From the IMG/VR virus record IMGVR_UViG_3300027787_000001: DNA of 64,000 bases. One strand, given 5' to 3'. The position numbers were made by a program, and so were the translations under genes. The notes under the pieces were generated by a model. The model did not search any database and was not told the DNA's origin. It saw only the letters and a list, made by a program, of their open reading frames with translations. The DNA is from an uncultured virus (IMG/VR IMGVR_UViG_3300027787_000001) (lineage: Duplodnaviria; Heunggongvirae; Uroviricota; Caudoviricetes). This document shows, in pieces, positions 1 to 28,938 of the stretch (positions within the stretch are counted from its first letter, which is position 1; each line of letters begins with the position of its first letter).

Positions 1-48
1 GATGGTAACGGAGGCGTCTTTTTCAGCAAGCATCCGACACGGCGAAGA

Positions 49-330
49 ATGGGCAAACCGACTGAAAACAGGAAACATAGGATCGGCATTAGGGTCCAGG
101 AACAAGACCGCGAGCGCATCCTTCAGCAGCTATTCCGCTGCCTCGGGAAATATGACCCTCGGGCCATCCCAAGGATCATCTCGAAGCGCACCGGGATCAC
201 TGAGCAGGCCGTTGATTACGTGTTCCAGCAGACCTGCCAGGAATTCAGAGAGTGGTCGCGTGAGATCCGACTTGGCCTAGCTAGAGCTGACGAAGCCGGA
301 TCGGCTGTGTGGGGAAGGAGAAGCGCATGA
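49..330 (+). CDS. Hypothetical phage protein
   Basis: ORF whose stop overlaps the next start (ATGA). Confidence 0.55.
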
Positions 331-830
331 TCGAAATCCTAGACCGATTCACGCGCGCGGTTCTGTACTCAAGCGCAACCGCGAACGATATTGCCACAGC
401 GGTGGCGGAAGCAGTTAAAAGCCGCGCGTACCTCAGCGGCGCGTACCTCAGCGGCGCGAACCTCAGCCGCGCGGACCTCAGCGGCGCGTACCTCAGCCGC
501 GCGGACCTCAGCGGCGCGTACCTCAGCGGCGCGTACCTCAGCCGCGCGGACCTCAGCGGCGCGTACCTCAGCGGCGCGGACCTCAGCGGCGCACAACACG
601 TCTTGCGGATCTCTGGCGGTCGGCACGACATCGTTGTTTCAGACACCGGCATGGTCTCAATCGGTTGCCATGATTATCCAATCGAGCGATGGCTGGCATC
701 GTATAAGGTCATCGGCCAAGCAGAGAACTACGGGCCAGAAGAGATCGAGGATTACGCGGATCGCCTGAAACTGGTCGCAAATTGGATTAGCCGCCAGAAG
801 GCTCACACAGATCAGGAGAAGACGGCATGA
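327..830 (+). CDS. Pentapeptide-repeat protein
   Basis: 11 x A(D/N/Y)LS(G/R) repeats, typical phage N-terminus and IGC-containing C-terminal domain; AAGGAG RBS. Confidence 0.93.
426..590 (+). repeat. 11 tandem 15-bp coding repeats (gcgDacctcagcSgc)
   Basis: Directly visible; encodes the pentapeptide repeats. Confidence 0.95.
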
Positions 831-7025: not shown

Positions 7026-7402
7026 CCGCACAGCCCTGGATCGCGCGCCGCGAGGAGTATCTCAAGAAGAAGGGCGTGGAGCCGCCGTCCTATGCATTGG
7101 CCGTAGCGAAAGAGCAGATCCGCCAGCACGTTGAACGTAAACCAGCTAGGTCGGAGTCGCAACGCGCCGCGGTATCGCGCACCATGAAGAGCTACCACGC
7201 GACGACCGAGAAGCGCCTGCACCACGAGGCTCTGTACGGGCGCCGGAAGCAGCCTGACCTTGAATTGGAGCTCAGATCAAGAATGGAGTCCGATATCGCG
7301 GCACTTCAGGGTCAGATGCGTGCTGCGCTCGGGATACTGGCGGAGCGCCGGCGGGAACTGGATCAGTTATGGGATCTGGTCGAGTGGATAATGAACCGAT
7401 GA
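7022..7402 (+). CDS. Hypothetical coiled-coil phage protein
   Basis: ATGA overlaps on both sides. Confidence 0.65.
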   Translation: MTAQPWIARREEYLKKKGVEPPSYALAVAKEQIRQHVERKPARSESQRAAVSRTMKSYHATTEKRLHHEALYGRRKQPDLELELRSRMESDIAALQGQMRAALGILAERRRELDQLWDLVEWIMNR

Positions 7403-7857
7403 ATTCTGTGCTCTTCAGTTCGGCTACGGATCGCTGGGCGACACCGCGCGATGTCTACGATGCGCTTGACGCTGAGTTCTGTTTTGACTTCGATCCCTGC
7501 CCGATTGACGGCACAGAAGATGGCCTTGCAACGCTCTATACGCAATGGATGGGACGCCGGATATTCTGCAACCCTCCATATGGCCCGGGGCTGGCTAAGT
7601 GGCTAGAACGCGGGCTGGAAGCGAACCTGGCGGTATTCCTGATTCCCGCCCGGACAGACACGCGCTGGTTTCATGACATCGTGTTGCCGAATGCAAAAGA
7701 GATCCGGTTTATAAGGGGACGGTTGAAATTCGGCAATGCCGTGAATGGCGCGCCGTTTCCGAGCATGATCGTGGTGTTCAAGCGCTTGGGCAGTGAAGAG
7801 AAGAAGCCCAGAAATGCCAGGGAACATGTGTGTGGCTCAAACTGTTTGGATTGGTAA
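7399..7857 (+). CDS. Phage DNA N6-adenine methyltransferase (Dam-like phage family)
   Basis: FSSATDRWATP, FDFDPCP, FCNPPYG, LIPARTDTRWFH, GRLKFG, APFPS. Confidence 0.92.
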   Translation: MNSVLFSSATDRWATPRDVYDALDAEFCFDFDPCPIDGTEDGLATLYTQWMGRRIFCNPPYGPGLAKWLERGLEANLAVFLIPARTDTRWFHDIVLPNAKEIRFIRGRLKFGNAVNGAPFPSMIVVFKRLGSEEKKPRNAREHVCGSNCLDW

Positions 7858-10927: not shown

Positions 10928-11252
10928 CGATTACCGCGCGCTGGCGGCGGACGTACTAAAGGGCTGCGGCGTACATCCGCTTGGTCTGATTGGTGCTATT
11001 GATGCGGTGGCTCAGTTCGCTAAGGAACGGGTGATTGAGGAACTAGAGCGGTTGGCGAAGGTGCGGTGCGAATGGTGCGAGGATAGTCCGGCAGTTCTTG
11101 GGAAGACAAATTATATCCACCATCTGCCAAAAGGAAGCTCTGATTTTGATACGGAGATGTGCCACGCCCAACCCGAGCAGCGCCGCATAGCCGAACTCAA
11201 AGCCGAACTGGAGAAATCACAATGCCCGTCACTGATCCCGTCGAAGCCCTGA
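10920..11252 (+). CDS. Hypothetical phage protein
   Basis: GGAGG RBS; CEWC...H...C. Confidence 0.65.
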   Translation: MADDYRALAADVLKGCGVHPLGLIGAIDAVAQFAKERVIEELERLAKVRCEWCEDSPAVLGKTNYIHHLPKGSSDFDTEMCHAQPEQRRIAELKAELEKSQCPSLIPSKP

Positions 11253-11917
11253 TGCGGGAACTGAAACCTGAGCGCTTCCTACACCAATCGCGCGAAGCAA
11301 TAGAGCGCGATCATCTGCACATTGTGGAGCACCACCAAAAGTACCTGATACCGCACTTGCGCCGCTATATCACGCCGGACGTGCAGACGGTGCTGGATTT
11401 TGGCTGCGGTTCCGGCGGATCAACAATTGCGCTTGCTCTGGAATTCCCTGGGTTGGAGATTATCGGGACCGACGTGGACAATCGGGAAATTGAGATTGCG
11501 CGTTGTCGAAGGAGATGCTACGGCATAGATGCGAAGCGTTGCAGTTTTCTCTTTGAACTTGCGAATAAGCGCCTGGCATTCTGGGGAAACGATTTTGACC
11601 TCTGCATCTGCTCATCGGTCCTCGAATACGTGACTGACCCGGCGGCCCGGCGCTTCTGCGTTCAGGAGATGGTGCGGCTGGTAAAACCTGGTGGTCTGCT
11701 ATTCTTTTCGATGCCGAATCGCCTGTACCCGTTCGAGATTCACACGCGCAAATGGGGGTGGAACTGGTTCCCGAGGCTGATGAATGCGCGGACGCTTGAT
11801 TGTACCTGGATGGAGGTAGAATGGCTGGCGCGGCCGGCGAAGCTCAGTCTCTACTGGACGCCGGTCATGCAATTACTGAGGCACTGGTCGAACTTTTGCT
11901 TGAAGAAGATGGAGTGA
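11222..11917 (+). CDS. Class I SAM-dependent methyltransferase
   Basis: VLDFGCGSG, GTDVD, FDLCICSSVLEYV, VKPGGLL motifs. Confidence 0.92.
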   Translation: MPVTDPVEALMRELKPERFLHQSREAIERDHLHIVEHHQKYLIPHLRRYITPDVQTVLDFGCGSGGSTIALALEFPGLEIIGTDVDNREIEIARCRRRCYGIDAKRCSFLFELANKRLAFWGNDFDLCICSSVLEYVTDPAARRFCVQEMVRLVKPGGLLFFSMPNRLYPFEIHTRKWGWNWFPRLMNARTLDCTWMEVEWLARPAKLSLYWTPVMQLLRHWSNFCLKKME

Positions 11918-11923
11918 CCAACA

Positions 11924-12163
11924 ATGAAGACTCTCGCGCTTTACCTCGCATCAGTGATCTGCTGCGCCGCCGACATCCTGCCGCTCGCCGCCGAGTACCA
12001 CGCGACACCATGCGGCGATCTAGCCGGGGGCAACGACCCTATCTGTGGCAGCGACGTGTTCGGGCCGAGCCTCGTCATCGTGTCGCCCTTGCGGTTTGAT
12101 CCCGATCCGAAGGTGCAGCAGGACATCAACCTGCAATATACGGTTCCACTCGCCCAGAGGTAG
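11924..12163 (+). pseudogene. Exported protein, probably truncated by an IS end
   Basis: Signal-peptide-like N-terminus; its stop TAG lies within GGTAGTGTC at 12159. Confidence 0.55.
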
Positions 12164-12185
12164 TGTCTAAAATGTGCGTTGATCG
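12159..12185 (+). mobile_element. Orphan IS1-family-like left end
   Basis: ggtagtgtctaaaatgtgcgttg resembles the IR at 14382. Confidence 0.65.
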
Positions 12186-12234
12186 GAAAAACTGAGCGGT
12201 TGCTTTCCGTCCGATCCCGCCGCACCATGAAAGC

Positions 12235-12667: not shown

Positions 12668-12709
12668 ACAAAGGCCCGACTCTGCGACACCGCAGAACCG
12701 GGCCTTTGT
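12668..12709. terminator. Hairpin, possible bidirectional terminator
   Basis: acaaaggcccg ... cgggcctttgt inverted repeat. Confidence 0.55.
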
Positions 12710-13019
12710 TGAATCCGTGGTTGACGGACCGAGTAGCTGTTGACACTCCTACTCTAGTCCAATTCCGGGCGGTCCGTCAATTTCGGGGCCGAGCTGTCAA
12801 TGTCAATCGACGGCCATTATCGAAGTTGGAGAATTGAGAAAAATGCAAAAGCAACCGTGGCATTCGAAGAGACCAGGAGAGACGGTGTAACACGATAATG
12901 ACAAGTGCACCGAAGGAAACAACATCGAGACGTACTACATGGCACCCGGTACGGGCGGTCGCAGAAAATGCGAACACTGCGAGCGCCTGGATCGGGCTGG
13001 CCAATAAAAACCTAAGCGG

Positions 13020-13301
13020 TTACCGGATAGGGAAGAAGGTCAGTTCCCACCACGGACCGTTTATTTCACCATCACTGACGCCCCACACGCGTCTGAGATT
13101 GTACGCGTTCAGTTGGTTATTGAGCGCGATATGAAGTGCTCTCAGGCCCTCTGTGGGGCCGCCATGAAACCGTACCGTGGCCTCGGGAAATGTATGCCCG
13201 AGGCCACCCTGACATGATTCAAATGTCTCTATCCCAGCCGCTCGCAGAATCTCAACTTCGCGCTTGATGCCATCATCAAATTGATGATTCAGCGGGTACA
13301 T
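13020..13301 (-). CDS. Hypothetical passenger protein
   Basis: DDGI...VEILRAAGIETFESCQGG.GH motif; start uncertain. Confidence 0.7.
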   Translation of the reverse strand: MYPLNHQFDDGIKREVEILRAAGIETFESCQGGLGHTFPEATVRFHGGPTEGLRALHIALNNQLNAYNLRRVWGVSDGEINGPWWELTFFPIR

Positions 13302-13516
13302 CCCAAGAATTATATTCTGAAAGCAACGAATCTGTGCATAAAATCTGTTATGCGTCCCGATGATTTTGTTTCGGTTCTAATACAGAATTTCGCCTACGCT
13401 CCAGATCCGGTCCGCAATTTATATTACTACATAGGTATATCCTGTCAAGTAAAATATCTTATTGTAATACCCGCCATACTGTGATATTTTATAGTGGTAG
13501 ATCAGGGAGGGATCGA

Positions 13517-13864
13517 ATGCCGAGAGTGCCGATCACCGTGATGGGCTACCGCTGTGAGCGATGTAGCCATGAATGGATTCCACGTGACACGTCGCAAGAG
13601 CCATCCGTATGCCCAAAATGCAAAAGTCCCTATTGGAATCGTCCGAGGAAGAAGCCAAGCTCCATGCTGACCTACGAGGACTTTCGGGACAAGATCCAGC
13701 AGACCTTGAAGCAATCTAGCCCGCTCACGTGGACTGAGATACGGACCCTTGCGAAGCTACCGGAGAAATTTCCCAACAACAAGTGGGTGTGCCGGATGGA
13801 GCAGGATATCGGACTCAAGCGCAATAAAGACGCGCACGGGATTATTAAATGGAAACTCGGCTGA
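13517..13864 (+). CDS. Zn-ribbon plus putative winged-helix protein
   Basis: YRCERCSHEWIPR...CPKCKSPYWN; GGAGG RBS. Confidence 0.8.
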   Translation: MPRVPITVMGYRCERCSHEWIPRDTSQEPSVCPKCKSPYWNRPRKKPSSMLTYEDFRDKIQQTLKQSSPLTWTEIRTLAKLPEKFPNNKWVCRMEQDIGLKRNKDAHGIIKWKLG

Positions 13865-13883
13865 CCTGCGTTAAACTGAGGCC

Positions 13884-14408
13884 ATGCCACAGGCGAACAG
13901 GCTCAGTCTTCCAAGCGCTACCGTGAAAATGCAGGTTGCAAATCGGATAATTTGGAATGATGCACGTTCAGCTACCTTGGCTGATTTTTTCACAATTGGT
14001 TACACGGGCAGGAAGACCGAAGAGATTATAGCGACGCTTAAGCAGCACGGAGTGCGAACCCTGGTGGACATTCGGCAGAACCCCGTCAGCATGTATCGCC
14101 CAGAGCTAAGCAAGAGCAATCTCGCCCAACTTCTGGAAGATAACGGGATGTGTTACGCCCACCTGCCACAATTCGGAGTACCGCGCGATATTAGGGCCAA
14201 AGCAATTGAAACGGGAAGCCGTGATGTGATCTGGGCCTGGTATGACGAAAATGTTGTCGCGTCGTCCCTGAATCTTCACTACTTCCTAAATGGGTTCGAG
14301 CACCCGGTAGCGCTAATGTGCACCGAAATCGACCCACATGAATGCCATAGGCACCGCCTCTCGCTGGCACTGGAAGCGATGGGTAGTGTCCTAAATCTGC
14401 GGTGCTGA
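13884..14408 (+). CDS. DUF488 family protein, C-terminus supplied by IS end
   Basis: FTIGY, LVDIR..PVS, ALMC.E.DP..CHR; stop codon lies inside the IR. Confidence 0.85.
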   Translation: MPQANRLSLPSATVKMQVANRIIWNDARSATLADFFTIGYTGRKTEEIIATLKQHGVRTLVDIRQNPVSMYRPELSKSNLAQLLEDNGMCYAHLPQFGVPRDIRAKAIETGSRDVIWAWYDENVVASSLNLHYFLNGFEHPVALMCTEIDPHECHRHRLSLALEAMGSVLNLRC

Positions 14409-14415
14409 AGATAAT

Positions 14416-14940
14416 TCAATCTTTATCGCGACTGGCCAAAAGTTTACCGGCTAACGCAGACAGCATTGTGAAACTCGCAGCCAGAACAGGATTGCCTAAG
14501 CTTGAATTTCCCGTTGCCGATAGCACGAGGCCGCCACCGATGCCGCCAATCGTCACAACCAAAATTGTCACAGTGAGTGCAGTCTGATGATTAAGCTTTT
14601 TCTTCCTAAATTCATGATCGCGCTTGCTTTGCTCTTCGCGATTCTGCAATGAGGATTGAAATCCTTTTAATCTGCACTCTTCTTCGTGCATCTCGGTCTG
14701 AGCGAGCGTCTTTGCTGTCTCGGGGTCTGGGCCGAACCCAAATGTAGTCCGAGAAAGTGCCACGGACAAAATCGCTTTTGCATCTTGGTCAGGAACTTTC
14801 TCTAACGCACTCAGAATCGGGCGCGGCAGCGGAACAGAAATCTCGGGCGGCTTCTCAAGGCTCTTGGACGGATCGGCCACTTCTGGGGGTGTTTGGGGTG
14901 TAGCGGTTCCGTCGTGGGGGCTGTCCGGGCCAGCAGACAT
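14416..14940 (-). CDS. Membrane protein (DUF2335-like)
   Basis: FGPDPE.., E..HE, two C-terminal hydrophobic helices. Confidence 0.7.
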   Translation of the reverse strand: MSAGPDSPHDGTATPQTPPEVADPSKSLEKPPEISVPLPRPILSALEKVPDQDAKAILSVALSRTTFGFGPDPETAKTLAQTEMHEEECRLKGFQSSLQNREEQSKRDHEFRKKKLNHQTALTVTILVVTIGGIGGGLVLSATGNSSLGNPVLAASFTMLSALAGKLLASRDKD

Positions 14941-14949
14941 TTCTAAAGT

Positions 14950-15219
14950 CTACCGCTTTGCAGCAGCTTTGGATACGAATCTGTTCAACAACTCAGACCA
15001 CCGGCTGAGCAACTCGGAATAGACAGCGGCTCGCGAAATGGACTCGACTCGGAACGATGTCATATCAGAATCGACTGGCACGATTCGATGAAAATGGGCG
15101 GCATCGGACGACCGGAGCTGAGCAGCTCGCTTGACTGCCTCGTCCAGCGCAAGCGCCGGTTCATCGGCGTGTCTGTATTCGAACAGATCGTAATCTGTTG
15201 ATTCCATTAGGCTAGGCAT
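14950..15219 (-). CDS. Hypothetical passenger protein
   Basis: ORF directly upstream of the membrane protein. Confidence 0.65.
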   Translation of the reverse strand: MPSLMESTDYDLFEYRHADEPALALDEAVKRAAQLRSSDAAHFHRIVPVDSDMTSFRVESISRAAVYSELLSRWSELLNRFVSKAAAKR

Positions 15220-15394
15220 AAATATCGGCTATTGACAAAAAACTATATAACCAATGTTACCTTTAGTCAATCCCTTCCCGCTACCTTAGACGTGCGGTCA
15301 GGAACAGAAGTCTCTCATTTTTCACACATCGGCTGCTATGAATCCTAGTTCTCTTTGGTTATCGACAAGAAGATTTCTGATGGGAAAATTTTGC

Positions 15395-16330
15395 TCAAGA
15401 CAGAAGTTCTCTCAGATCCCACACGCGATTTGCGATCCCCGCCTGCATCGCCGGAGTCACCCGCAAACTGGAATGAATCCGGCAGAAGTTGTACCAGGCG
15501 AAGTGCAGACAGAGCGCTGCCCAAAGATTCTCCCACTTCTTACTAAAGCCGTTCGTGAGCCGCGTCAGCCTACGAATCTGCATCCGCATGGTGAGGTTCT
15601 GGCGTTCGATGTGAGAGGTACAGATGCGCTTCGGATCGGGATTGCCGATGACTGGGACCGCCTCTGTGGAAACGACTTCGGCGGGGCTGTAGCGTGCTTC
15701 GCCAGCAACGGAAGCGCGATAGACCTTGATGAGTTGCGCGAAGTCCACGCGGTCGGAGAGCGTGTTTTCCACGGCGCTAGGGTACGTTCCGAATCCGTCG
15801 GCGCTGAGCTGGTAGGGTTTCGGCGCGGTCGCGTGCCGCAAACCTTCGATGAAAATATCCGTTGTGGCCTGGTCGCGTTTCCCGAGGGCAAAGTTTAGAA
15901 CTAGTTTTGAGTGCCGTTCGATTGCAACGAACGTATAGGCGTCTCCAAAGTTAGGGTCATCACCGGGCTGGAGTGCCTTCTGCTTCTTGAAGCAGAATCC
16001 CCAGATTTCGTCGAGTTGAACATCGCGGACCGGCACATTGACGATCATCCGGCCCAGGATGGCCTCGCAGCGCTGTCCGGCGAGAACCAGCAGGCGCATG
16101 ATCGTATCGCGGTGTAGGCCAGTGATGCGCTCCGCGCTTCTGATGCTGTTCCCTTCGAGTAGGAGTTGAAGCGCCAGTAGGCCCTTATCTGCGGGCGTGT
16201 ACATCGCGTCAAAGGGGCGCTCATGAGCTTCCGTGAAGGTTTTCTTGCACTGAGCGCAGCGGTAGCGCTGAAGGCCGTTGCGGTGCTTACCGTTGCGCTT
16301 ACATTCGATCCGGCAGGAATGGCAGGTCAT
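15395..16330 (-). CDS. IS1-family DDE transposase (single ORF: Zn finger-HTH-DDE)
   Basis: CxxC...GLQRYRCxxC; LEGNSIRSAERITG; VQLDEIW, LSADGF..Y, HIERQNLTMR..IRRLTRLT.GFSKK, YNFCRIHSSLRVTPAMQAG. Confidence 0.93.
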   Translation of the reverse strand: MTCHSCRIECKRNGKHRNGLQRYRCAQCKKTFTEAHERPFDAMYTPADKGLLALQLLLEGNSIRSAERITGLHRDTIMRLLVLAGQRCEAILGRMIVNVPVRDVQLDEIWGFCFKKQKALQPGDDPNFGDAYTFVAIERHSKLVLNFALGKRDQATTDIFIEGLRHATAPKPYQLSADGFGTYPSAVENTLSDRVDFAQLIKVYRASVAGEARYSPAEVVSTEAVPVIGNPDPKRICTSHIERQNLTMRMQIRRLTRLTNGFSKKWENLWAALCLHFAWYNFCRIHSSLRVTPAMQAGIANRVWDLRELLS

Positions 16331-16461
16331 GGAATCTCCTCTTGAGTTCCGCAGCCTGAAGCCGGATAATCGAGGTGCGAACCTGTACGGCTTCGGCTGT
16401 ACGGATAGTGGCCCCGGTTGTAGCTCTAACTACTTCCGGGGCTTTTGTTTTCATGCTTCTA

Positions 16462-16536
16462 TTATACGTGAGCGGTCACGTATAAAGCAAGGGGAAAATG
16501 ATACAGAAATCCCTTTACTTTTCGTGAGCGCTCACG
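16462..16536. promoter_or_regulatory. Two palindromic operator-like sites between divergent genes
   Basis: ttatacgtga-gcgg-tcacgtataa (16462-16485) and cgtgagcgctcacg (16523-16536). Confidence 0.75.
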
Positions 16537-16549
16537 TATCATTGGTTAC

Positions 16550-16720
16550 GTGCCAAACAAGAGAAAGAATCCCGCTGCCGTGGCACTTGGCCGTAAAGGT
16601 GGTAAAAAAGGCGGCCCAGCGCGGGCGGCAAGTATGACCGCCGAGCAGCGCAAACAAAGTGCCCGAAAGGCAGTTCAGGCACGCTGGGCTAAGGTAAAGG
16701 CGGAAAACGCCGAAAGTTGA
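16550..16720 (+). CDS. 56-aa basic KGG-motif protein (not in ORF track)
   Basis: KNPAAVALGRKGGKKGGPARAASMTAEQRKQSARKAVQARW; TATCAT -10 seven bases before GTG. Confidence 0.85.
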   Translation: MPNKRKNPAAVALGRKGGKKGGPARAASMTAEQRKQSARKAVQARWAKVKAENAES

Positions 16721-17350
16721 GCTTTTGGAGACCAGGGCGGGAGTCGCGCCCGTTGCACAGGAGATGCAAGCTCCTGTCCCAGTAACTCACCGGGTTAAGC
16801 CCCTGGCCGTCTCCAAAAAGCGGGGGAGCATCAAAAAAACGGTGCTCCCCTGTCCGTCGAAACAAGGTTTCGCTTTTTTGCTGGACTGGTGGGCCGCGAA
16901 TATGGTAAGTAAACACGTAGAGCGGTCGCATTGTGAATCGCTTCCCTTCGGTGGAACCGGGTTTCTGAGGCCCTACGGTCCAGCGAAAGTCCTAATCCGA
17001 ATTGCTCTGGAGCCGCTTTAACGCGGCTCTTGGAGTTTTTGGGCTATAAATTCCTCCAAAACATTTTCTATCGAAATTGTATTATAGGCGACGCACCGAC
17101 AGATTTACAGTGCTCTCACCGCAGGATCGCTCCAATGCAAGGGATTGTGCTTCCGTGGATTCTGCCCGGCCTGTGCCCCCCGAACAGAAGCTACATTATA
17201 GGCTCAAAAATGTTGATTGCAAAGTGTTTTGTTCTGATCCACGGCTCATTGCGGATCACGCCGGGCAATGCAGGCGGAGATTGCGGATCGGGTTTGGCCA
17301 CTGACCGAATTACTGACCCCTTGATCGATATATAGTAGATCAAGCCCCCG

Positions 17351-18265
17351 ATGGATACTGAACCAGGCCGCGACGATCAGAAGGATACCTCCGAGTCCAA
17401 AAAACAGGAGGCGCTTTCGGTCGGGAAAGCTCGGGAGGAAGCCAAGAAAGCAGCATCCTCCAGTGGCGCAGAGAATGCCAATAGTCACCAGGAGCCAACC
17501 CACTCTCTGAAGATACTCCTTCGGGGCCATTCCATGCTGGAATGGATCAGCCTGGGATTCACTCTGGTTCTGGTATTGGTCGGCATTTTCTACACATTCT
17601 ATGCGGCAAAGCAATGGCAAGCCATGCAAGCGGCCCTTAAAAAAACGGACCAGTCCCTTGAGTTGACCCGACAATCCTTGGAACTCAACCGACGACAGAC
17701 TGTTGCCGCCGAGGAATCCGCAAAAGCTGCTAGTGAATCCGTTAGACTCGGCAAGTCGTCTTTGGATACCTCGACAAAATCCTTTCAGATAGAACAGCGC
17801 CCATACCTCATAACAGCGGGCGCACCCAGGTTTGTTGGCGACGCCCGCCCCGCCGCTGATCATCCGATACACGTCAACATTACTTTTCTGAATGTCGGCA
17901 AGACTCCTGCTATTAGAGTCCAGGCTTTCCGTCACTTGGCTATACTGCCAGGGCAATCCAATATGGTTGCCGTAAGTGCCTTCATCGAGAGGTTTTTCGC
18001 CGATGCAAGGCAAACAAAGGATGACGGCCAAGGAGAAGATGTAGCTCCAGGAGGAACCTTTTTTACCACTGGTCAGGACCTTCCGATATTGTCCGCTGAG
18101 GAGATTGCCGCAATAGAGCAGAGCCGAGATGCTATTTATTTCATTGGAGGAGCCAGTTATGAAGATGCTTTTCGCTCCAGACACAAGACCGAGTTTTGTT
18201 TCTCTTTTATCGGAACGGACATTACCGTTTGGCATATCTGTGGCACACATAACACCGTCCGCTGA
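17351..18265 (+). CDS. Single-pass membrane protein with coiled coil and beta-rich C-terminal domain
   Basis: One TM helix, QW.AM, EQRPYL, NVGKTPA, YEDAF...H.TEFC. Confidence 0.8.
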   Translation: MDTEPGRDDQKDTSESKKQEALSVGKAREEAKKAASSSGAENANSHQEPTHSLKILLRGHSMLEWISLGFTLVLVLVGIFYTFYAAKQWQAMQAALKKTDQSLELTRQSLELNRRQTVAAEESAKAASESVRLGKSSLDTSTKSFQIEQRPYLITAGAPRFVGDARPAADHPIHVNITFLNVGKTPAIRVQAFRHLAILPGQSNMVAVSAFIERFFADARQTKDDGQGEDVAPGGTFFTTGQDLPILSAEEIAAIEQSRDAIYFIGGASYEDAFRSRHKTEFCFSFIGTDITVWHICGTHNTVR

Positions 18266-18375
18266 AGATTCCCTGGGACGCGACCACGCGGCTGCCCTCA
18301 GTCTACACCCGCTGTCAAATTTCTCAGCACCGCAGATTTAGGACACTACCTAAAGTGTGCCCGAGAAAGGAAAAT

Positions 18376-18645
18376 ATGCAAATAATTGAAAATGAAGTTG
18401 TCTCTGGAAAAACAGTCTCGATTGACGACAAGAATTTCGTCAATTGTCGCTACAAAGACTGCACGGTTCTCTACAGTGGTGGGGACTTCGGTTGGGTCAA
18501 CACCTTCTTTGAGAACTGCCAAGTCAACTTGGCCGGGTCGGCGCAGAAGACCGCAAATCTGCTGACCTTCTTTGGCATTCTCAAGTTGCCCACGAATACC
18601 GGTGGGAACGGTCCTCACGGATCTGGCTCACCCGCAGTCCAGTAA
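18376..18645 (+). CDS. Hypothetical protein
   Basis: AAGGA RBS; IDDKNFVNCRYKDCTVLYSGG; followed by terminators. Confidence 0.75.
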   Translation: MQIIENEVVSGKTVSIDDKNFVNCRYKDCTVLYSGGDFGWVNTFFENCQVNLAGSAQKTANLLTFFGILKLPTNTGGNGPHGSGSPAVQ

Positions 18646-18693: not shown

Positions 18694-18731
18694 GGACCGC
18701 AGCTCCGCCATAAGCTGCGGTCCTTTTTTTT
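18694..18731 (+). terminator. Rho-independent terminator
   Basis: ggaccgcagct...agctgcggtcc followed by T8. Confidence 0.85.
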
Positions 18732-19010
18732 GCGGTTGCCCCTCAACCACGATTTAGCGAACTACCATGCGCCGAGGAGGGTCACAAGAACTGCTGTAAA
18801 ATAATAAAGGGGTGATAAGCGGCTGACACCGCCTCACCCCGGAACCTTTGCCTTAAGACTGTCTAGTTCGAAAGGAGACGTGAGTGCGTCTGAGATCCCT
18901 TATTATTTTACGATGCCGTGGGCCACCAGTCAACAACAAATACGTTAAACATCCAGCTTGTTAATGGGTTGGAAGGTACAGGAGAGCGGCTTGCGACGCT
19001 CTCCCGCATA

Positions 19011-19094
19011 AGGCCGAGGAGCTTTATCCTGATGGTAAGGGACGGGAGCCTGCAACTCCCGAGCAATGGGTTCGATCCCCACCTCGGTCTTCCA
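19011..19094 (+). tRNA. Irregular tRNA or tRNA-like gene (9-bp acceptor/4-bp T stem; anticodon TGC, or GCA off-register)
   Basis: aggccgagg/cctcggtct acceptor, cgggag-cctgcaa-ctcccg arm, tggg-ttcgatc-ccca T arm, encoded CCA. Confidence 0.7.
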
Positions 19095-19276
19095 TGTAGA
19101 GTCTACGTCTAATACTTGGACACGTCAACTTTTCTCTTGACAAACAGCGAGTGCTCGCTGTATTATTGGCTATGATAAAGACAGAAAACACCAACTCTTC
19201 AATGGCTTGCAGAGCTCTCGCGCCGCAGTGTCGAATAGCGAGCATGGGAACATTTAGTGCTGGGCACTACCGGGGA

Positions 19277-19732
19277 ATGATTACCGCCGAGGAAACCGTC
19301 CCGTCTTACGAATCCTTGATCGGCGTAGTGGAGATCCTTGCGAACGTTATGGAATCTCCGGCATCTTGGGCGCACTCTAAACTCAGCGGGATGACGGCTT
19401 GCGATGCAGATTGGAAAGCCATAGAATCGGCTCCTCCCAATGATGTCGCTAAAAGGCTGGCGTTTAGCGTCCTGAAATCAGCACATGCCTTGCGGCCAAT
19501 CGAACCGTCCTACGTAACGGCCTCCGCCGAGGGAGGCGTGGGAATCGTGTACAGGTCGAATGTGAAATATGCGGCGCTTGAATGCCTCAACACCGGCGAT
19601 CTTCGTCTGCTGTGGTTCGACCTGGGCGGTGCGCCACATTCAATCAAAGTTAGGCCAAGAAGGATTGGAGAAGCGCTGAAGCAAATCGCGGCAATACACG
19701 CGCCAAATGCCAGAGCCTCTCAATCCCGCTGA
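19277..19732 (+). CDS. Hypothetical protein, antitoxin/immunity-like
   Basis: DW..ESAPP...PSYVTASAEGGVGIVY pattern; overlaps downstream gene; start uncertain. Confidence 0.55.
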   Translation: MITAEETVPSYESLIGVVEILANVMESPASWAHSKLSGMTACDADWKAIESAPPNDVAKRLAFSVLKSAHALRPIEPSYVTASAEGGVGIVYRSNVKYAALECLNTGDLRLLWFDLGGAPHSIKVRPRRIGEALKQIAAIHAPNARASQSR

Positions 19733-20123
19733 TTTTCCAATTGAGATCCACAGGAATGGACAGCCACTCGTGCCTGAATTTGATGAGGATGAGTGGTTCT
19801 ACTGCCGGTTCGACCCGGCATTCGTTCTACCGAATAGTAATAACATAGACCCACTCCATATAAAACTGATACCATGTCCCGATTTTTCATCGAACCGTAG
19901 CAAGTTTAGTAAATCTTGGCATGTTCTTTGCCCATTAGCGAAATTTAGAAACCATGTTGTTTTTAAGTTCCGCATACAAGATCTTCCAGCTACGATTCAG
20001 GGCGACGGAAAAAACGCTCCGGTCCATGATGTCAAGACGGAGCACGATCCAGAAGAATATAACTACAGCCGACCTGGCAAGGCCCGAAGCATTCCGAAGA
20101 TCACTGAGGTTAGGGCGTCGTAG
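19707..20123 (+). CDS. Hypothetical protein, possibly ART/RES-like toxin, perhaps C-terminally truncated
   Basis: DEWFYCR...SSNRSKFS...VKTEHDP..NYS pattern. Confidence 0.5.
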   Translation: MPEPLNPADFPIEIHRNGQPLVPEFDEDEWFYCRFDPAFVLPNSNNIDPLHIKLIPCPDFSSNRSKFSKSWHVLCPLAKFRNHVVFKFRIQDLPATIQGDGKNAPVHDVKTEHDPEEYNYSRPGKARSIPKITEVRAS

Positions 20124-26511: not shown

Positions 26512-28938
26512 CTACTTTGTGATCTGCGATGGTGCGATGGCGATTGTCGCTGGCGGTTTTGGAGGCGGTTGACGATAGGGCGATCGCCGCAACTTCAGGC
26601 CCCAATCCGGGCTTTGTGCCACATTCACCGGCGGTGGCATGATCGGCTGATTCTGCGGAGGTGGAATTACCGCACGAAAGAATGCTGCCGCGGCCTGGCC
26701 ATACTGTTCAGGCGTCAGATTCTGCGGTGGAGTCGGCGGCGGCATCGCCCCACCTGCGTTCAGTTGCGGCGGGGGCGCCGGCGGAACTGCGGTGGCTGGC
26801 GGGCCCACGATTCCACCGCGCGCCAACTTCTTGAGCTTTCGGTGCCACTTCAGACCCCTACCGGGAAGCACTAGGCCGCCCTTAGACATTTGGGGAAGCG
26901 GGGGTTTGGCAGAAGCACTTTCTTCCGGTTTTGCTTGTTCGGATTCCGCCGCTGCCGGTAGAGATACAGGACTGGCATCCTTGCCTGCCAATTTTAGAAT
27001 TTGCCCTGCGGTAACGGCTGCAATATTCCCTGAACTCGGAGCAAGCGGCAGTCGTGCTCCTCTGATGAGCAGACTAGATCCAGCCGGGTCGTAGAGCATT
27101 CTCGCTAGAGCACGATTGGCGATCAGGTAGGCTGCCTGAGTGCCGAGCATAGACATCCCGACTTTAGGACTTGCCACGACCCACCCGAGACCGTGAACGA
27201 ATTGGAGAACATTCAATCCGGCACCGGCGACGTAAGCCGTGCCGCTGGGATTTGGGTTCTCTGCCTCCATTTTGGCGAGTTGGAAAAAGTTATCTAGCTT
27301 GCTTATCAACTTTGGATCACGGAAGAGGATTCTCTTGGTGGCATCGCCCATCTTGTTCCACGAAGACAGGGCAGTTTGGGCGCCGGGTTTTCCTTCTGGA
27401 TTGAGAGCGCTGTCGAATAGACCTTCAAGGGTGGCTCTACCTACTGCGGGGAGGGCTTCGGGCGCATTCTTTTGAACGTCACGGAGCAGGCTGATGTTCA
27501 TGTCGCCTTTTTGCGTCAGCTGATTGAAGAGGCGTACAGGTTCGTCAACATTCAATTGATCCATCGTGGCCTGCGTTGCATATTTCGCGGCAGTGAGTTT
27601 TCTACCTTCTCGAAGAGCCGCTATCGCGTCGGGACCGGCAGAAGAAACCGCCGACTCAACCTGAGGAGCCAAGGCATCTATCGCCTGCTTGGCTAGGTAT
27701 TTAGTTCGTTCATTCACGTTCTCGCGGAGGATAGCTTTAACAGCTCCCAAGTTGTCTTCTGCGATGCTTGCCGGGAGTGTATCGGGACCGTTGATGATGT
27801 TGCCGATTGCCTTCAGGCCACGGGAAGCTTGCTGTTGCGCGAGCGGCATGTCTTGGCTAAGTCGGTCATAGATGGGCTGCAAAGATGTCTTTGCGTCTCC
27901 CATGCTGACCGGAATCGCCATCTGCTCTACCTGTGGGACGGATCGTGTGATGGGTTGCCCGCTCTGATCCAAGACGCCGGTCTGGACGGTCTTTACCCCA
28001 GTTTGAATTGGCTTGATATTGGCAGGATCTTGCTCGATTGCTGCGAGTCGAGCATAAGCCCCGCGAGCCTGCTGGGCCTGAGACGATTTGGCCGCTGCGA
28101 GTTGTTTCGTCACCGCCGCGCCGGCACCTTCCGGTGTCGTGATACCCCCTGGCGCTACTTGCTCTGCCAGATTCTGCGACACCTGCCCCATTCGAGCGCG
28201 GGTATTTTCCACCGCCTGTTGCGCTACATTCGCGCCTCCGGGAGCATTGGCGACGGCACCCTGAACGTTCTTAACGGCTCGGTTACCCGTTCGTGTTGCC
28301 GCACTGATGGGGATGTTCTGCTCTTCGGCGAAGCGGACAGCCGATGTGCCTGCCGGTGTGAGTCTGGGTTCAACACCCGGCAACTTTATATTCTCGGGAA
28401 GTTTTGTCGCACCATGAAGCAGGGCGATCATTGATCCCGCCCCGGCAAGCCCAGCCCAGTCCTTGTTCCTAACTTTGTCTTCTATGTAACTGAGCGCATC
28501 GCCGAATCCAGGGATAGCCTCGGCGGTGCTGAGAACGGCGCGAGCCTTATTCCGAAACATCTGTCCAGGATCACTAGCCGGTGCATTCAAAGCCGTACCG
28601 GCTTCAGATAATTTCTGTTTGGATCGCTGGATCTGTCCTTCGATGAGATTTGGATCTACCAGTCCCGTCGACGCTCCGCCTAATGTCATCGTCGGCGGAA
28701 GACTGAATGCCTGCGGAGTTGCCTTCGCAATATCACCGGCGCCAGATGCAAAACGGCTTACCGCACCTGGTCCCTCGGGCGGGGGCGCAGAGTCTATTGC
28801 GCCGGCCTGCTTCGCAAGAGCCGCATAGTCTATCGGTTGCTTCCCACCAGGAGGCCCGAGAGACGGCGCGGGCGCGGCAGGCGGCAGACCTCGTGCCTGT
28901 CGATCCAGCGCGTCGTAATCTATCGTTTGTCCGGCCAT
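26512..28938 (-). CDS. Putative ejection (internal virion) protein
   Basis: Ala/Gly-rich helical protein, IDYDAL/IDYAAL N-terminal repeats, position after nozzle. Confidence 0.7.
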   Translation of the reverse strand: MAGQTIDYDALDRQARGLPPAAPAPSLGPPGGKQPIDYAALAKQAGAIDSAPPPEGPGAVSRFASGAGDIAKATPQAFSLPPTMTLGGASTGLVDPNLIEGQIQRSKQKLSEAGTALNAPASDPGQMFRNKARAVLSTAEAIPGFGDALSYIEDKVRNKDWAGLAGAGSMIALLHGATKLPENIKLPGVEPRLTPAGTSAVRFAEEQNIPISAATRTGNRAVKNVQGAVANAPGGANVAQQAVENTRARMGQVSQNLAEQVAPGGITTPEGAGAAVTKQLAAAKSSQAQQARGAYARLAAIEQDPANIKPIQTGVKTVQTGVLDQSGQPITRSVPQVEQMAIPVSMGDAKTSLQPIYDRLSQDMPLAQQQASRGLKAIGNIINGPDTLPASIAEDNLGAVKAILRENVNERTKYLAKQAIDALAPQVESAVSSAGPDAIAALREGRKLTAAKYATQATMDQLNVDEPVRLFNQLTQKGDMNISLLRDVQKNAPEALPAVGRATLEGLFDSALNPEGKPGAQTALSSWNKMGDATKRILFRDPKLISKLDNFFQLAKMEAENPNPSGTAYVAGAGLNVLQFVHGLGWVVASPKVGMSMLGTQAAYLIANRALARMLYDPAGSSLLIRGARLPLAPSSGNIAAVTAGQILKLAGKDASPVSLPAAAESEQAKPEESASAKPPLPQMSKGGLVLPGRGLKWHRKLKKLARGGIVGPPATAVPPAPPPQLNAGGAMPPPTPPQNLTPEQYGQAAAAFFRAVIPPPQNQPIMPPPVNVAQSPDWGLKLRRSPYRQPPPKPPATIAIAPSQITK

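What the first reader, a model, noticed from the sequence alone, without database searches (positions are those of the whole stretch)
19011..19094. Irregular tRNA-like gene with 9-bp acceptor / 4-bp T stem and mixed Ala/Cys identity
Seen: acceptor aggccgagg:cctcggtct (G3:U wobble), 7-nt connector, short D arm with TGG, 6-bp anticodon stem with loop CCTGCAA, T arm tggg-TTCGATC-ccca, discriminator T and encoded CCA. A centred anticodon is TGC (Ala; fits G3:U but has C33); one base over is T-GCA (Cys; fits U73). Established: canonical tRNAs are 7/5; archaeal/eukaryotic tRNA-Sec is 9/4; 8/4 and 9/3 allo-tRNAs are known from mobile DNA. Inference: a non-canonical tRNA, anticodon-nuclease decoy, antitoxin RNA, or a decayed tRNA.
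Basis: partly seen in the sequence, partly recalled or inferred. Interest (0 to 1): 0.72.

Follow-up and report, generated by a model that had tools for sequence, protein, structure and literature searches.

The report
Irregular "E-loop" tRNA in phage
A soil phage carries a real gene for an odd-shaped transfer-RNA look-alike that belongs to a little-known family first reported from forest-soil RNA in 2017, and a second copy rides on a jumping gene in the same phage; what these RNAs do is still unknown.

Summary
The cloverleaf is real and not chance: 1 of 500 shuffled windows gave one. Standard finders miss it. It is not a new kind. By eye it aligns over its full 79 nt to the 15 distinct "tRNA1 (8/4, E-loop)" sequences in the supplement of Mukai et al. 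2017 (PMC5389517). Those come from soil metatranscriptomes. Every stem difference I read is compensatory. The family register is an 8-bp acceptor, a 6-7-nt extra loop, a 4-bp T stem and U73. That places the gene at 19012-19090. The anticodon is UGC; the Cys reading fails. A model built from this copy alone finds a second copy at 16808-16729 (-), at 56.7 bits. The two differ by four two-sided compensatory changes. The second copy lies inside a 3,969-bp IS1-family element that sits elsewhere in other samples. The host replicon is a roughly 67-68-kb soil phage with no integrase found and no other tRNA. Function is unknown. I favour a tRNA surrogate, either an unusual decoder or a decoy, used by mobile DNA. 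Verdict: new member of a known, uncharacterised family, in a new setting.

The parts
19012..19090 (+). W: gene for an irregular 8/4 'E-loop' tRNA, anticodon UGC (loop CCUGCAA, C33), discriminator U19090
   Evidence: Sequence; fold; ARAGORN -mt call at exactly these ends; by-eye full-length match to the published family; model R1
19011..19094 (+).
   Evidence: The ninth pair and the in-register CCA hold only for this copy. In W2 the base before the 5' end is C and CCA follows U73 directly
18981..19004 (+). 8-bp GC-rich hairpin (loop GCUUGCGA) ending 7 nt before W; role unknown
   Evidence: no listed difference in the X4 relative from 18978 to 19009
18767..19210 (.). Block shared at about 90-95% with a relative in run X4, which has unrelated sequence on both sides
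   Evidence: tables 3, 4, 7 and 8
16729..16808 (-). W2: second, diverged copy of the same tRNA type; anticodon UGC (loop CUUGCAU), T loop CGCGACU, U73; CCA follows at 16728-16726
   Evidence: Rfam sub-threshold Tymo_tRNA-like, 23.4 bits; cloverleaf minimum-energy fold; model R1 56.7 bits, E 4.5e-12; pair counts
16823..16850 (-). Hairpin followed by a T run, ending 14 nt before the 5' end of W2
   Evidence: read directly
14382..18350 (.). IS1-family element (3,969 bp) with perfect 27-nt terminal inverted repeats; carries W2, the transposase and three unknown ORFs
   Evidence: I2; transposase hits; found at another site in other samples
15395..16330 (-). IS1-family transposase
   Evidence: NCBIfam NF033558, E 9.1e-24, below its cut-off; Pfam DDE_Tnp_IS1; at most 43% identity to plasmid IS1 transposases
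18934..18942 (.). Alternative insertion site of the IS in runs X2 and X3 and in contig L010, about 70 nt upstream of W, with an 8-9-bp target duplication
   Evidence: joint 18349>18934; records 6, 10, 11
19137..19166 (+). Strong sigma-70-like promoter (TTGACA-18-TATTAT) with a palindrome in its spacer; it drives the downstream ORFs, not W
19172..20123 (+). Two overlapping ORFs (186 aa and 138 aa) of no known family downstream of W

Best explanation
W (19012-19090, + strand) is an intact, selectively maintained gene for an irregular tRNA. It belongs to the published 'tRNA1 (8/4, E-loop)' type: 8-bp acceptor, a 6-7-nt extra loop before the D arm, a 6-bp anticodon stem, a 5-nt variable region, a 4-bp T stem and U73. 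Its anticodon is UGC. It sits in the backbone of a roughly 67-68-kb soil phage. A diverged sister copy (W2) is cargo of an IS1-family element in the same phage. Inferred, not shown: the RNA is cut out like a tRNA, with RNase P cutting at G19012 and the 3' end at U19090 receiving CCA. It folds into an L shape with a normal elbow (D-loop GG, T-loop UUCGAUC). It acts as a tRNA surrogate for mobile DNA rather than as a housekeeping tRNA-Ala. My odds within this reading are: unusual decoder of GCA/GCG with an undetermined amino acid, about 40%; uncharged or non-decoding decoy or regulator aimed at tRNA-targeting enzymes, about 40%; something else, about 20%.
For: Shape beyond chance. Family match, read by eye in the supplement of PMC5389517. 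I read all of sheet 2, 111 rows, and parts 1 and 21 of sheet 1. In sheet 2, 31 rows are typed E-loop, giving 15 distinct sequences, all from forest or peat metatranscriptomes and all with N73 = T. W has the same length (79 nt) and segment lengths as most of them. It shares the AGCU..AUCC / GGUA-GGGAC / GAGCAA / UGGGUUCGAUCCCCA blocks and is about 80% identical to the nearest rows (Ga0058901_1524500; Ga0058901_1223014, which has the same loop CCUGCAA labelled UGC). Across the 15 sequences plus W and W2, I saw no non-standard pair in the acceptor, anticodon or T stems. Acceptor pairs 2, 4, 6 and 7, anticodon-stem pairs 2, 3, 5 and 6, and T-stem pair 2 each show two or more standard pair types. 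Tool-based evidence: a covariance model built from W alone scores W2 at 56.7 bits (E 4.5e-12), against at most 32.2 bits for ordinary phage tRNAs in 18 other sources. Between W and W2, 42 of 44 cells pair and 4 pairs changed on both sides, against 0 in all six slid controls. The two are 55 of 76 aligned bases identical. W2 has CCA directly after U73, which supports the 8/4 register. Local conservation: the X4 relative shows 15 listed substitutions or indels in 18950-18977 and 19110-19171, and none listed inside 19011-19094. Mobile-DNA setting: phage genes; the IS.
Against: There is no RNA evidence for this copy, and I found no convincing + strand promoter between the terminator at 18694-18731 and W. 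W stands alone. No tRNA0 or tRNA2 partner was found, whereas published members lie in polycistrons. [quoted passage not shown] The family comparison was done by eye and carries no statistics. With only two sequences the shuffle control is weak (38 of 500). In the X4 relative, differences within 31 nt of contig ends (19043-19073, 19080-19109) are not listed, 19074-19079 is not covered, and three differences in each of records 14 and 15 are unplaced. Full conservation of W in that relative is therefore not shown. W2 has a non-canonical T loop (CGCGACU) and may be decaying. Folding energy is not exceptional.
Confidence: 0.72

Rival explanations
1. W is a working alanine tRNA in the reader's 9/4 register. 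In that reading the mature RNA starts at A19011, G.U falls at 3:70 for AlaRS, the discriminator is U19091 and CCA is encoded. It would supply a decoder for GCA, possibly one that host anticodon nucleases do not recognise.
For: In that register the alanine anticodon UGC, a G.U at the third pair and an in-register CCA coincide. W and W2 are only 72% identical, yet both keep G.U at the same acceptor pair, while none of the 15 published members has a G.U there (by eye). Nine viral tRNA-Ala(UGC) genes called by ARAGORN carry the same loop CCUGCAA, together with G3.U70 and A73, so C33 is compatible with real alanine tRNAs. Allo-tRNAs bearing G3:U70 inserted Ala in E. coli (paper).
Against: The family register is 8/4 with U73. 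In W2 the base before the 5' end is C, so there is no ninth pair, and CCA follows U73 directly. That puts its G.U at 2:71. Other family members with alanine anticodons lack any G.U. G.U is also the expected intermediate between the A-U and G-C seen at that pair in relatives. A73 is absent. GCA is an ordinary codon here, 234 of 1,195 Ala codons in 19 long ORFs, so there is no sign of a need for codon supply.
Confidence: 0.13
2. W is a decaying relic of an irregular tRNA that hitch-hiked into the phage and no longer does anything.
For: No promoter found. No partner tRNAs. Standard finders reject it. The paper reports inactive and pseudogene-like relatives near transposons. W2 has a degenerate T loop.
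Against: All 22 pairs of W are standard. The elbow motifs are canonical. Differences from relatives are compensatory. No change is listed inside W in the X4 relative, although the flanks differ. W is identical in three soil runs.
Confidence: 0.1
3. The element is a DNA site, for example an attP core copied from a host tRNA gene, rather than an RNA gene.
For: Two viral contigs end beside it: G001 at 18724 and G002 at 19092. Phages often integrate into tRNA genes.
Against: Pfam and PHROGs scans of the ORFs I submitted found no integrase: ORFs of about 80 aa or more from the window, and of 116 aa or more from the extra G001 stretch. The whole cloverleaf is present, not just a 3' half. Its relatives are transcribed RNAs in polycistrons. 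Logan contigs of X1-X3 run through it without a joint.
Confidence: 0.03

Closest known systems
'tRNA1 (8/4, E-loop)' irregular tRNAs of soil metatranscriptome polycistrons (Mukai et al. 2017, Nucleic Acids Res 45:2776, PMC5389517; restated in Krahn et al. 2020, PMC7609411)
   Same: Same length and architecture: 8-bp acceptor, extra loop between acceptor and D stem, 6-bp anticodon stem, 5-nt variable region, 4-bp T stem and U73. Full-length sequence similarity of about 80%. Alanine-box anticodons are common (22 of 31 rows by the authors' labels). C33 occurs in some members. Soil origin.
   Different: W stands alone in a phage backbone, and W2 is cargo of an IS1-family element. Neither sits in a tRNA0-tRNA1-tRNA2 polycistron. 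Both carry a G.U at acceptor pair 2, which I saw in none of the 15 published sequences. W has a 7-nt rather than a 6-nt extra loop. W2 has an aberrant T loop and an encoded CCA.
Allo-tRNAs (8/4 and 9/3) of the same paper
   Same: 12-bp acceptor/T branch split 8/4; found on mobile DNA and in soil bacteria; fast-changing anticodons on a constant body.
   Different: Allo-tRNAs have a long variable arm and Ser-type identity. W has a 5-nt variable region and an extra loop instead.
tRNA-Sec (Rfam RF01852)
   Same: Long acceptor, short T stem and 6-bp anticodon stem. It is the best Rfam match.
   Different: The score of 20.9 bits is far below the cut-off of 47. The anticodon is UGC, not UCA. There is no long variable arm.
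Canonical phage tRNA-Ala(UGC) genes with loop CCUGCAA (9 viral loci found here)
   Same: Identical 7-nt anticodon loop with C32 and C33, and anticodon UGC.
   Different: Those are 7/5 tRNAs with G3.U70 and A73 that ARAGORN calls. W is 8/4 with an extra loop and U73.

Membership tests
tRNA1 (8/4, E-loop) irregular tRNA (Mukai 2017) | 8-bp acceptor stem plus 4-bp T stem (12-bp branch) | tested here: met
   All 8 + 4 pairs are standard in both W and W2.
tRNA1 (8/4, E-loop) irregular tRNA (Mukai 2017) | Extra loop between acceptor stem and D stem | tested here: met
   7 nt (AGCUUUA) in W and 6 nt in W2. The feature is described.
tRNA1 (8/4, E-loop) irregular tRNA (Mukai 2017) | Discriminator U73 | tested here: met
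   U19090 in the 8-bp register. All E-loop rows in the parts of sheet 1 that I read have N73 = T. W2 also has U.
tRNA1 (8/4, E-loop) irregular tRNA (Mukai 2017) | Full-length sequence homology to published members, with compensatory stem changes | tested here: met
   Compared by eye only with the 15 distinct sequences. No program alignment was made, because sequences from a paper were not entered into tools.
tRNA1 (8/4, E-loop) irregular tRNA (Mukai 2017) | Position in a tRNA0-tRNA1-tRNA2 polycistron | tested here: not met
   No other tRNA-like gene next to W or W2 by ARAGORN, Rfam at E up to 5 or model R1. This is a matter of context, not of the molecule.
tRNA1 (8/4, E-loop) irregular tRNA (Mukai 2017) | Transcribed (published members come from metatranscriptomes) | not testable with these tools
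   No RNA holder listed. All runs laid were contigs.
Allo-tRNA (8/4 or 9/3) | Long variable arm with Ser-type features | tested here: not met
   The variable region is 5 nt. Definition.
tRNA-Sec | UCA anticodon, long variable arm, Rfam gathering score | tested here: not met
   20.9 bits against 47; the loop is CCUGCAA.
Canonical tRNA-Ala | 7/5 cloverleaf, G3.U70, A73 | tested here: not met
   Not called by ARAGORN. G.U lies at pair 2 of the 8-bp stem, or at pair 3 only in the 9-bp reading. The discriminator is U.
tRNA-Cys | GCA at positions 34-36 of a 7-nt loop | tested here: not met
   Centring GCA shifts the loop and breaks the 6-bp stem. True viral tRNA-Cys genes containing CCTGCAA use the register C31 + CUGCAAA.

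The most novel reading that the evidence does not exclude
E-loop tRNAs with UGC anticodons are nuclease-proof replacement decoders for alanine GCA codons, carried by phages and IS1-type transposons. In this reading the odd body (8/4 plus an extra loop) and the C32-C33 loop hide them from a host enzyme that attacks tRNA-Ala(UGC). The G.U pair kept in both W and W2 would let AlaRS still charge them. The same CCUGCAA loop in nine ordinary viral tRNA-Ala genes would be a convergent answer to the same enzyme.
Probability: 0.12. Interest if true: 0.75.

Novelty: new member of a known kind. Interest (0 to 1): 0.5.

Why it matters
The E-loop irregular tRNAs appear in one paper from 2017 and one review, and have no known function. 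A search of the held library for 'allo-tRNA' from 2020 on gave 18 papers (17 listed); judged by title and the start of each abstract, none addresses their natural role. This window places two members on defined mobile elements. One is in a phage backbone. The other is inside an IS1-family element that has demonstrably moved within the phage population. That setting gives a concrete system for asking what such RNAs do, namely one phage with two copies that share an anticodon. It also supports the idea that irregular tRNAs are tools of mobile DNA rather than of cellular translation. For annotation, it shows that standard tRNA finders and Rfam miss this class.

Tried and rejected
- **Own genome:** not held. 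Relatives of a virus record cannot be drawn.
- **Exact and degenerate DNA scans for homologues:** Viral contigs gave nothing or chance hits. These were unrelated tRNAs, hairpins and one coding match.
- **Metagenome scan:** the 22-mer scan found only L010, which is the same phage.
- **Genome scans:** a 26-mer and a loop pattern found nothing.
- **Neighbour-protein searches:** they found only the same phage, as G002.
- **Phage and plasmid collections by DNA:** no match.
- **Host inference:** this failed. Terminase identity to isolates is at most 34%, and IS1 transposase identity to plasmids is at most 43%.
- **Sequencing runs:** no RNA holder is listed for the stretch.
- **Toxin-antitoxin or defence identity of the two ORFs downstream of W:** nothing in Pfam, PHROGs, NCBIfam or PADLOC beyond one match at E 0.0094. 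The Atlas gave only unnamed clusters.
- **Flank homology between W and W2:** none by blastn.
- **Codon-supply argument:** GCA is 19.6% of Ala codons and is not rare.
- **attP idea:** dropped, because no integrase was found.
- **Earlier notes of this scan:** none by sequence or by place.
- **Program alignment and covariation statistics with the published E-loop sequences:** left out, because sequences from a paper were not entered into tools.
- **Unread material:** the supplementary PDF of PMC5389517 (figures S5-S7) could not be read, and parts 2-20 of sheet 1 were not read. Either may hold more E-loop rows or the authors' drawing of the E-loop.

Full report
**What is at 19011-19094**

- Nine possible acceptor pairs, including one G.U.
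- A 7-nt connector, AGCUUUA.
- A D arm: UCCU / GAUGGUAA / GGGA.
- A 6-bp anticodon stem with the 7-nt loop CCUGCAA.
- A 5-nt variable region.
- A T arm: UGGG / UUCGAUC / CCCA.
- Then U and CCA.

The minimum-energy fold is a cloverleaf, but its energy is ordinary (z -1.45). ARAGORN finds no tRNA in the window, in the rest of the phage genome, or here even at 60% thresholds. Only its mitochondrial mode calls Ala(tgc), at 19012-19090, with an 8-bp acceptor, a 4-bp T stem and a 6-bp anticodon stem. Rfam has nothing at gathering score. The best sub-threshold match is tRNA-Sec at 20.9 bits against a cut-off of 47.

I ran a chance test. It required a T-loop motif, a T stem of at least 4 bp, an abutting perfect acceptor of at least 7 bp and a correctly placed anticodon hairpin. 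This site is the only one in the window, and 1 of 500 shuffled windows holds any. Without the anticodon hairpin the pattern is not rare (20 of 100 shuffles).

**Where it lies**

The window is phage DNA.
- PHROGs and Pfam find a large terminase, a scaffold protein, a Gam-like/Gp157 protein, a replication-initiator/HNH protein, Dam, another methyltransferase, a ParB-like domain and pentapeptide repeats.
- Two IMG/VR fragments are 99-100% identical to parts of it. G001 joins the window's end to its start across about 2.5-4.5 kb. The genome is therefore circular or circularly permuted, at roughly 67-68 kb.
- That extra stretch encodes Mom and ASCH proteins.
- None of the ORFs scanned is an integrase.
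- The terminase is at most 34% identical to those of isolated phages. The host is unknown.
- The DNA occurs in soil metagenomes.

W lies in a 500-nt gap. Upstream is a terminator at 18694-18731. Downstream is a strong promoter at 19137-19166 that drives two ORFs of no known family.

**Searches for relatives**

Exact and degenerate pattern scans of the viral, metagenome and genome collections found either the same phage or chance matches.

Laying four public runs gave the first comparative signal. Three soil runs hold W unchanged. A fourth, X4, holds a relative at about 90-95% over 18767-19210 only, with unrelated sequence on both sides. Its listed differences cluster at 18950-18977 and 19110-19171. 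One inserted base follows 19009, and none is listed inside W.

This is weaker than it looks. Differences within 31 nt of a contig end are not listed, and that covers 19043-19073 and 19080-19109. Positions 19074-19079 are not covered. Three differences in each of two contigs are unplaced.

**The family**

Mukai et al. 2017 (PMC5389517) describe polycistrons of irregular tRNAs (tRNA0, tRNA1, tRNA2) near toxin-antitoxin genes. I read the abstract, Results sections 12 and 16, and the supplement. The material came from forest and peat soil metatranscriptomes. [quoted passage not shown] The authors attribute the sequences tentatively to Acidobacteria. [quoted passage not shown]

The supplementary spreadsheet lists the sequences. 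I read all of sheet 2, which has 111 rows, and parts 1 and 21 of sheet 1.
- 31 rows of sheet 2 are typed E-loop, and they give 15 distinct sequences.
- The authors' anticodon labels are AGC 11, UGC 8, GCU 8, GGC 3 and GGU 1.
- 22 of the 31 rows therefore sit in the alanine box.
- One row labelled GCU actually carries the loop CCUGCAA.

By eye, W matches these sequences over its whole length. The total is the same (79 nt), and so are the segment lengths apart from one base moved between the extra loop and the D loop. Identity to the nearest rows is about 80% (Ga0058901_1524500 and Ga0058901_1223014). The latter has W's exact loop and is labelled UGC.

**Stem differences, read by eye**

I saw no non-standard pair in the acceptor, anticodon or T stems of the 15 sequences, W or W2. 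The variable pairs are listed below.

| Stem | Pair | Pair types seen |
|---|---|---|
| Acceptor | 2 | C-G, G-C, A-U; G.U in W and W2 |
| Acceptor | 4 | C-G, A-U, G-C, U-A |
| Acceptor | 6 | G-C; A-U in W |
| Acceptor | 7 | A-U; G-C in W, W2 and one published row |
| Anticodon | 2 | A-U; G-C in W |
| Anticodon | 3 | G-C, C-G, A-U |
| Anticodon | 5 | A-U, U-A, G-C |
| Anticodon | 6 | G-C, A-U |
| T | 2 | G-C, A-U, C-G |

I did not enter the paper's sequences into any tool, so this comparison has no program alignment and no statistics.

**A second copy in the window**

An Rfam scan at permissive E-values flagged 16718-16797 (-) as a weak tRNA-like element. Read on the minus strand, it is another E-loop tRNA, which I call W2.
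- It runs from 16808 to 16729.
- Its acceptor is GGCCAGGG/CCCUGGUC.
- It has a 6-nt extra loop.
- Its anticodon loop is CUUGCAU, so the anticodon is again UGC.
- Its T stem is CGGG/CCCG, around an aberrant loop CGCGACU.
- U73 is followed directly by CCA.

A covariance model built from W alone scores W2 at 56.7 bits (E 4.5e-12). Ordinary phage tRNAs in 18 other sources score at most 32.2 bits. No third copy turned up in the window or in G001 and G002.

On the model-guided alignment, 42 of 44 cells pair. Four pairs changed on both sides: two in the acceptor, one in the anticodon stem and one in the T stem. None did so in the six slid controls. With two sequences the shuffle control is weak (38 of 500). 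Overall identity is 55 of 76 aligned bases.

**Register**

W2 fixes the family register within this genome. Its CCA follows U73, and the base before its 5' end is C, which cannot pair with U73.

For W this makes G19012 the first base and U19090 the discriminator. I cannot exclude that W itself is matured in the 9/4 register.

In that register G.U would fall at 3:70, beside an alanine anticodon. It is notable that both W and W2 keep G.U at this pair while I saw it in no published member. However, G.U is also the natural intermediate between the A-U and G-C found there in the closest relatives.

**C33**

The loop CCUGCAA has C at position 33, where tRNAs almost always have U.
- Four of the 15 published E-loop sequences have C33 (by eye).
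- Two tRNA0 rows in the same sheet also have C33.
- A viral-contig scan for GGTAA..CCTGCAA..GTTCRANYC gave 16 loci.
- ARAGORN calls a tRNA at the match in 13 of those 16.
- Nine of the 13 are tRNA-Ala(tgc) whose 7-nt loop is CCUGCAA. In those I checked, the 5-bp stem is good and G3.U70 and A73 are present.
- The other four are tRNA-Cys in the register C31 + CUGCAAA.

C33 is therefore a recurrent trait of mobile-element tRNAs reading GCA, not a mark of decay. The scan selected for the loop, so it says nothing about how frequent the trait is.

**The IS element**

W2 lies inside a 3,969-bp unit (14382-18350) bounded by perfect 27-nt inverted repeats. The unit encodes an IS1-family transposase.

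In runs X2 and X3 and in contig L010, the same unit sits at 18934-18942, about 70 nt upstream of W, with an 8-9-bp target duplication. The element has therefore moved within this phage population and carries an irregular tRNA as cargo.

W2 has its own promoter-like site (17223-17195) and terminator-like hairpins after it (16682-16659 and 16626-16614). Two unchecked earlier notes from this scan describe IS1-type transposons carrying irregular tRNAs in another genome, one of them with a UGC anticodon.

**How it probably works**

Shown:
- An intact four-helix tRNA shape, kept by compensatory change.
- Membership in a transcribed family.
- Residence on mobile DNA.

Inferred:
- Maturation like a tRNA.
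- An L shape with a normal elbow in W.

Unknown:
- The amino acid, if any.
- Whether the RNA enters the ribosome.

The paper reports that one E-loop member was not charged by E. coli GlyRS or ThrRS, and that related irregular tRNAs were charged but not used in translation in E. coli. Anticodon loops differ between family members that share identical anticodon stems (by eye). This points to fast turnover of the anticodon on a constant body. That pattern fits either a mis-decoding adaptor or a decoy for anticodon-reading enzymes.

Phage tRNAs that escape anticodon nucleases through loop changes have been proposed (PMC10264068, Results read). GCA is not rare in this phage, so simple codon supply is unlikely. 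I rate decoder and decoy about equally likely, and an inert relic at about 10%.

**Verdict**

The element is real and was correctly seen. It is a new member of a published but uncharacterised family, found in a new setting: a phage backbone plus IS1 cargo. The 9/4 and Ala/Cys readings are not supported as stated, although an alanine identity for this copy is not excluded.

Noticed in passing
window 14382-18350; alternative site 18934-18942: An IS1-family element with perfect 27-nt inverted repeats. It carries W2, a transposase and three unknown ORFs. It sits at a different site, with an 8-9-bp target duplication, in runs X2 and X3 and in contig L010. In the window copy the flanks show no target duplication. 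A third, 78%-similar repeat copy lies at 12158-12189.
   Followed up: partly
window 12693-18597: This 5.9-kb stretch is absent from the otherwise identical viral record G001, which joins 12692 directly to 18598. The same junction appears as loose ends in runs X1-X3.
   Followed up: partly
L015, L016, L018, L022, L023, L025, L026, L027, L028 (about 1484-1560 in each): Nine viral tRNA-Ala(UGC) genes called by ARAGORN have C32-C33 in the anticodon loop (CCUGCAA) in place of the near-universal U33. L024 holds an uncalled Ala-like tRNA with the same loop and an odd D arm.
   Followed up: partly
window 19092; 19074-19079: Viral record G002 starts exactly at 19092, just after W. The X4 contigs break inside W's T loop. 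Assemblies seem to break at this element, perhaps because several W-like variants co-occur in soils.
   Followed up: no
window 19137-19166 and 19100-19128: A near-consensus promoter (TTGACA-18-TATTAT) with a perfect 7+7 palindrome in its spacer faces a weaker divergent promoter-like site. The weaker site's transcript would start at about the 3' end of W, on the opposite strand.
   Followed up: no
window 13884-14408: A DUF488 protein matches PADLOC candidate-defence models (PDC-M19A, E 5e-29). Its last codons run into the left inverted repeat of the IS.
   Followed up: no
window 1-127; G001 26601-26727 and 28518 onward: The first 127 bases of the window occur twice in G001, about 1.9 kb apart. 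This suggests a repeat-flanked indel near the window's start.
   Followed up: no
window 16461-16542: A 20-nt inverted repeat pair (90% complementary, 42 nt apart) lies between W2 and the transposase gene. It could be a regulatory site of the IS.
   Followed up: no
L011 3773-4444 and 4482-5348; window 309-830, 7369-7857, 11159-11917: The phage encodes Mom, an ASCH protein, a pentapeptide-repeat protein, Dam and another SAM methyltransferase. This is a set typical of anti-restriction functions.
   Followed up: no
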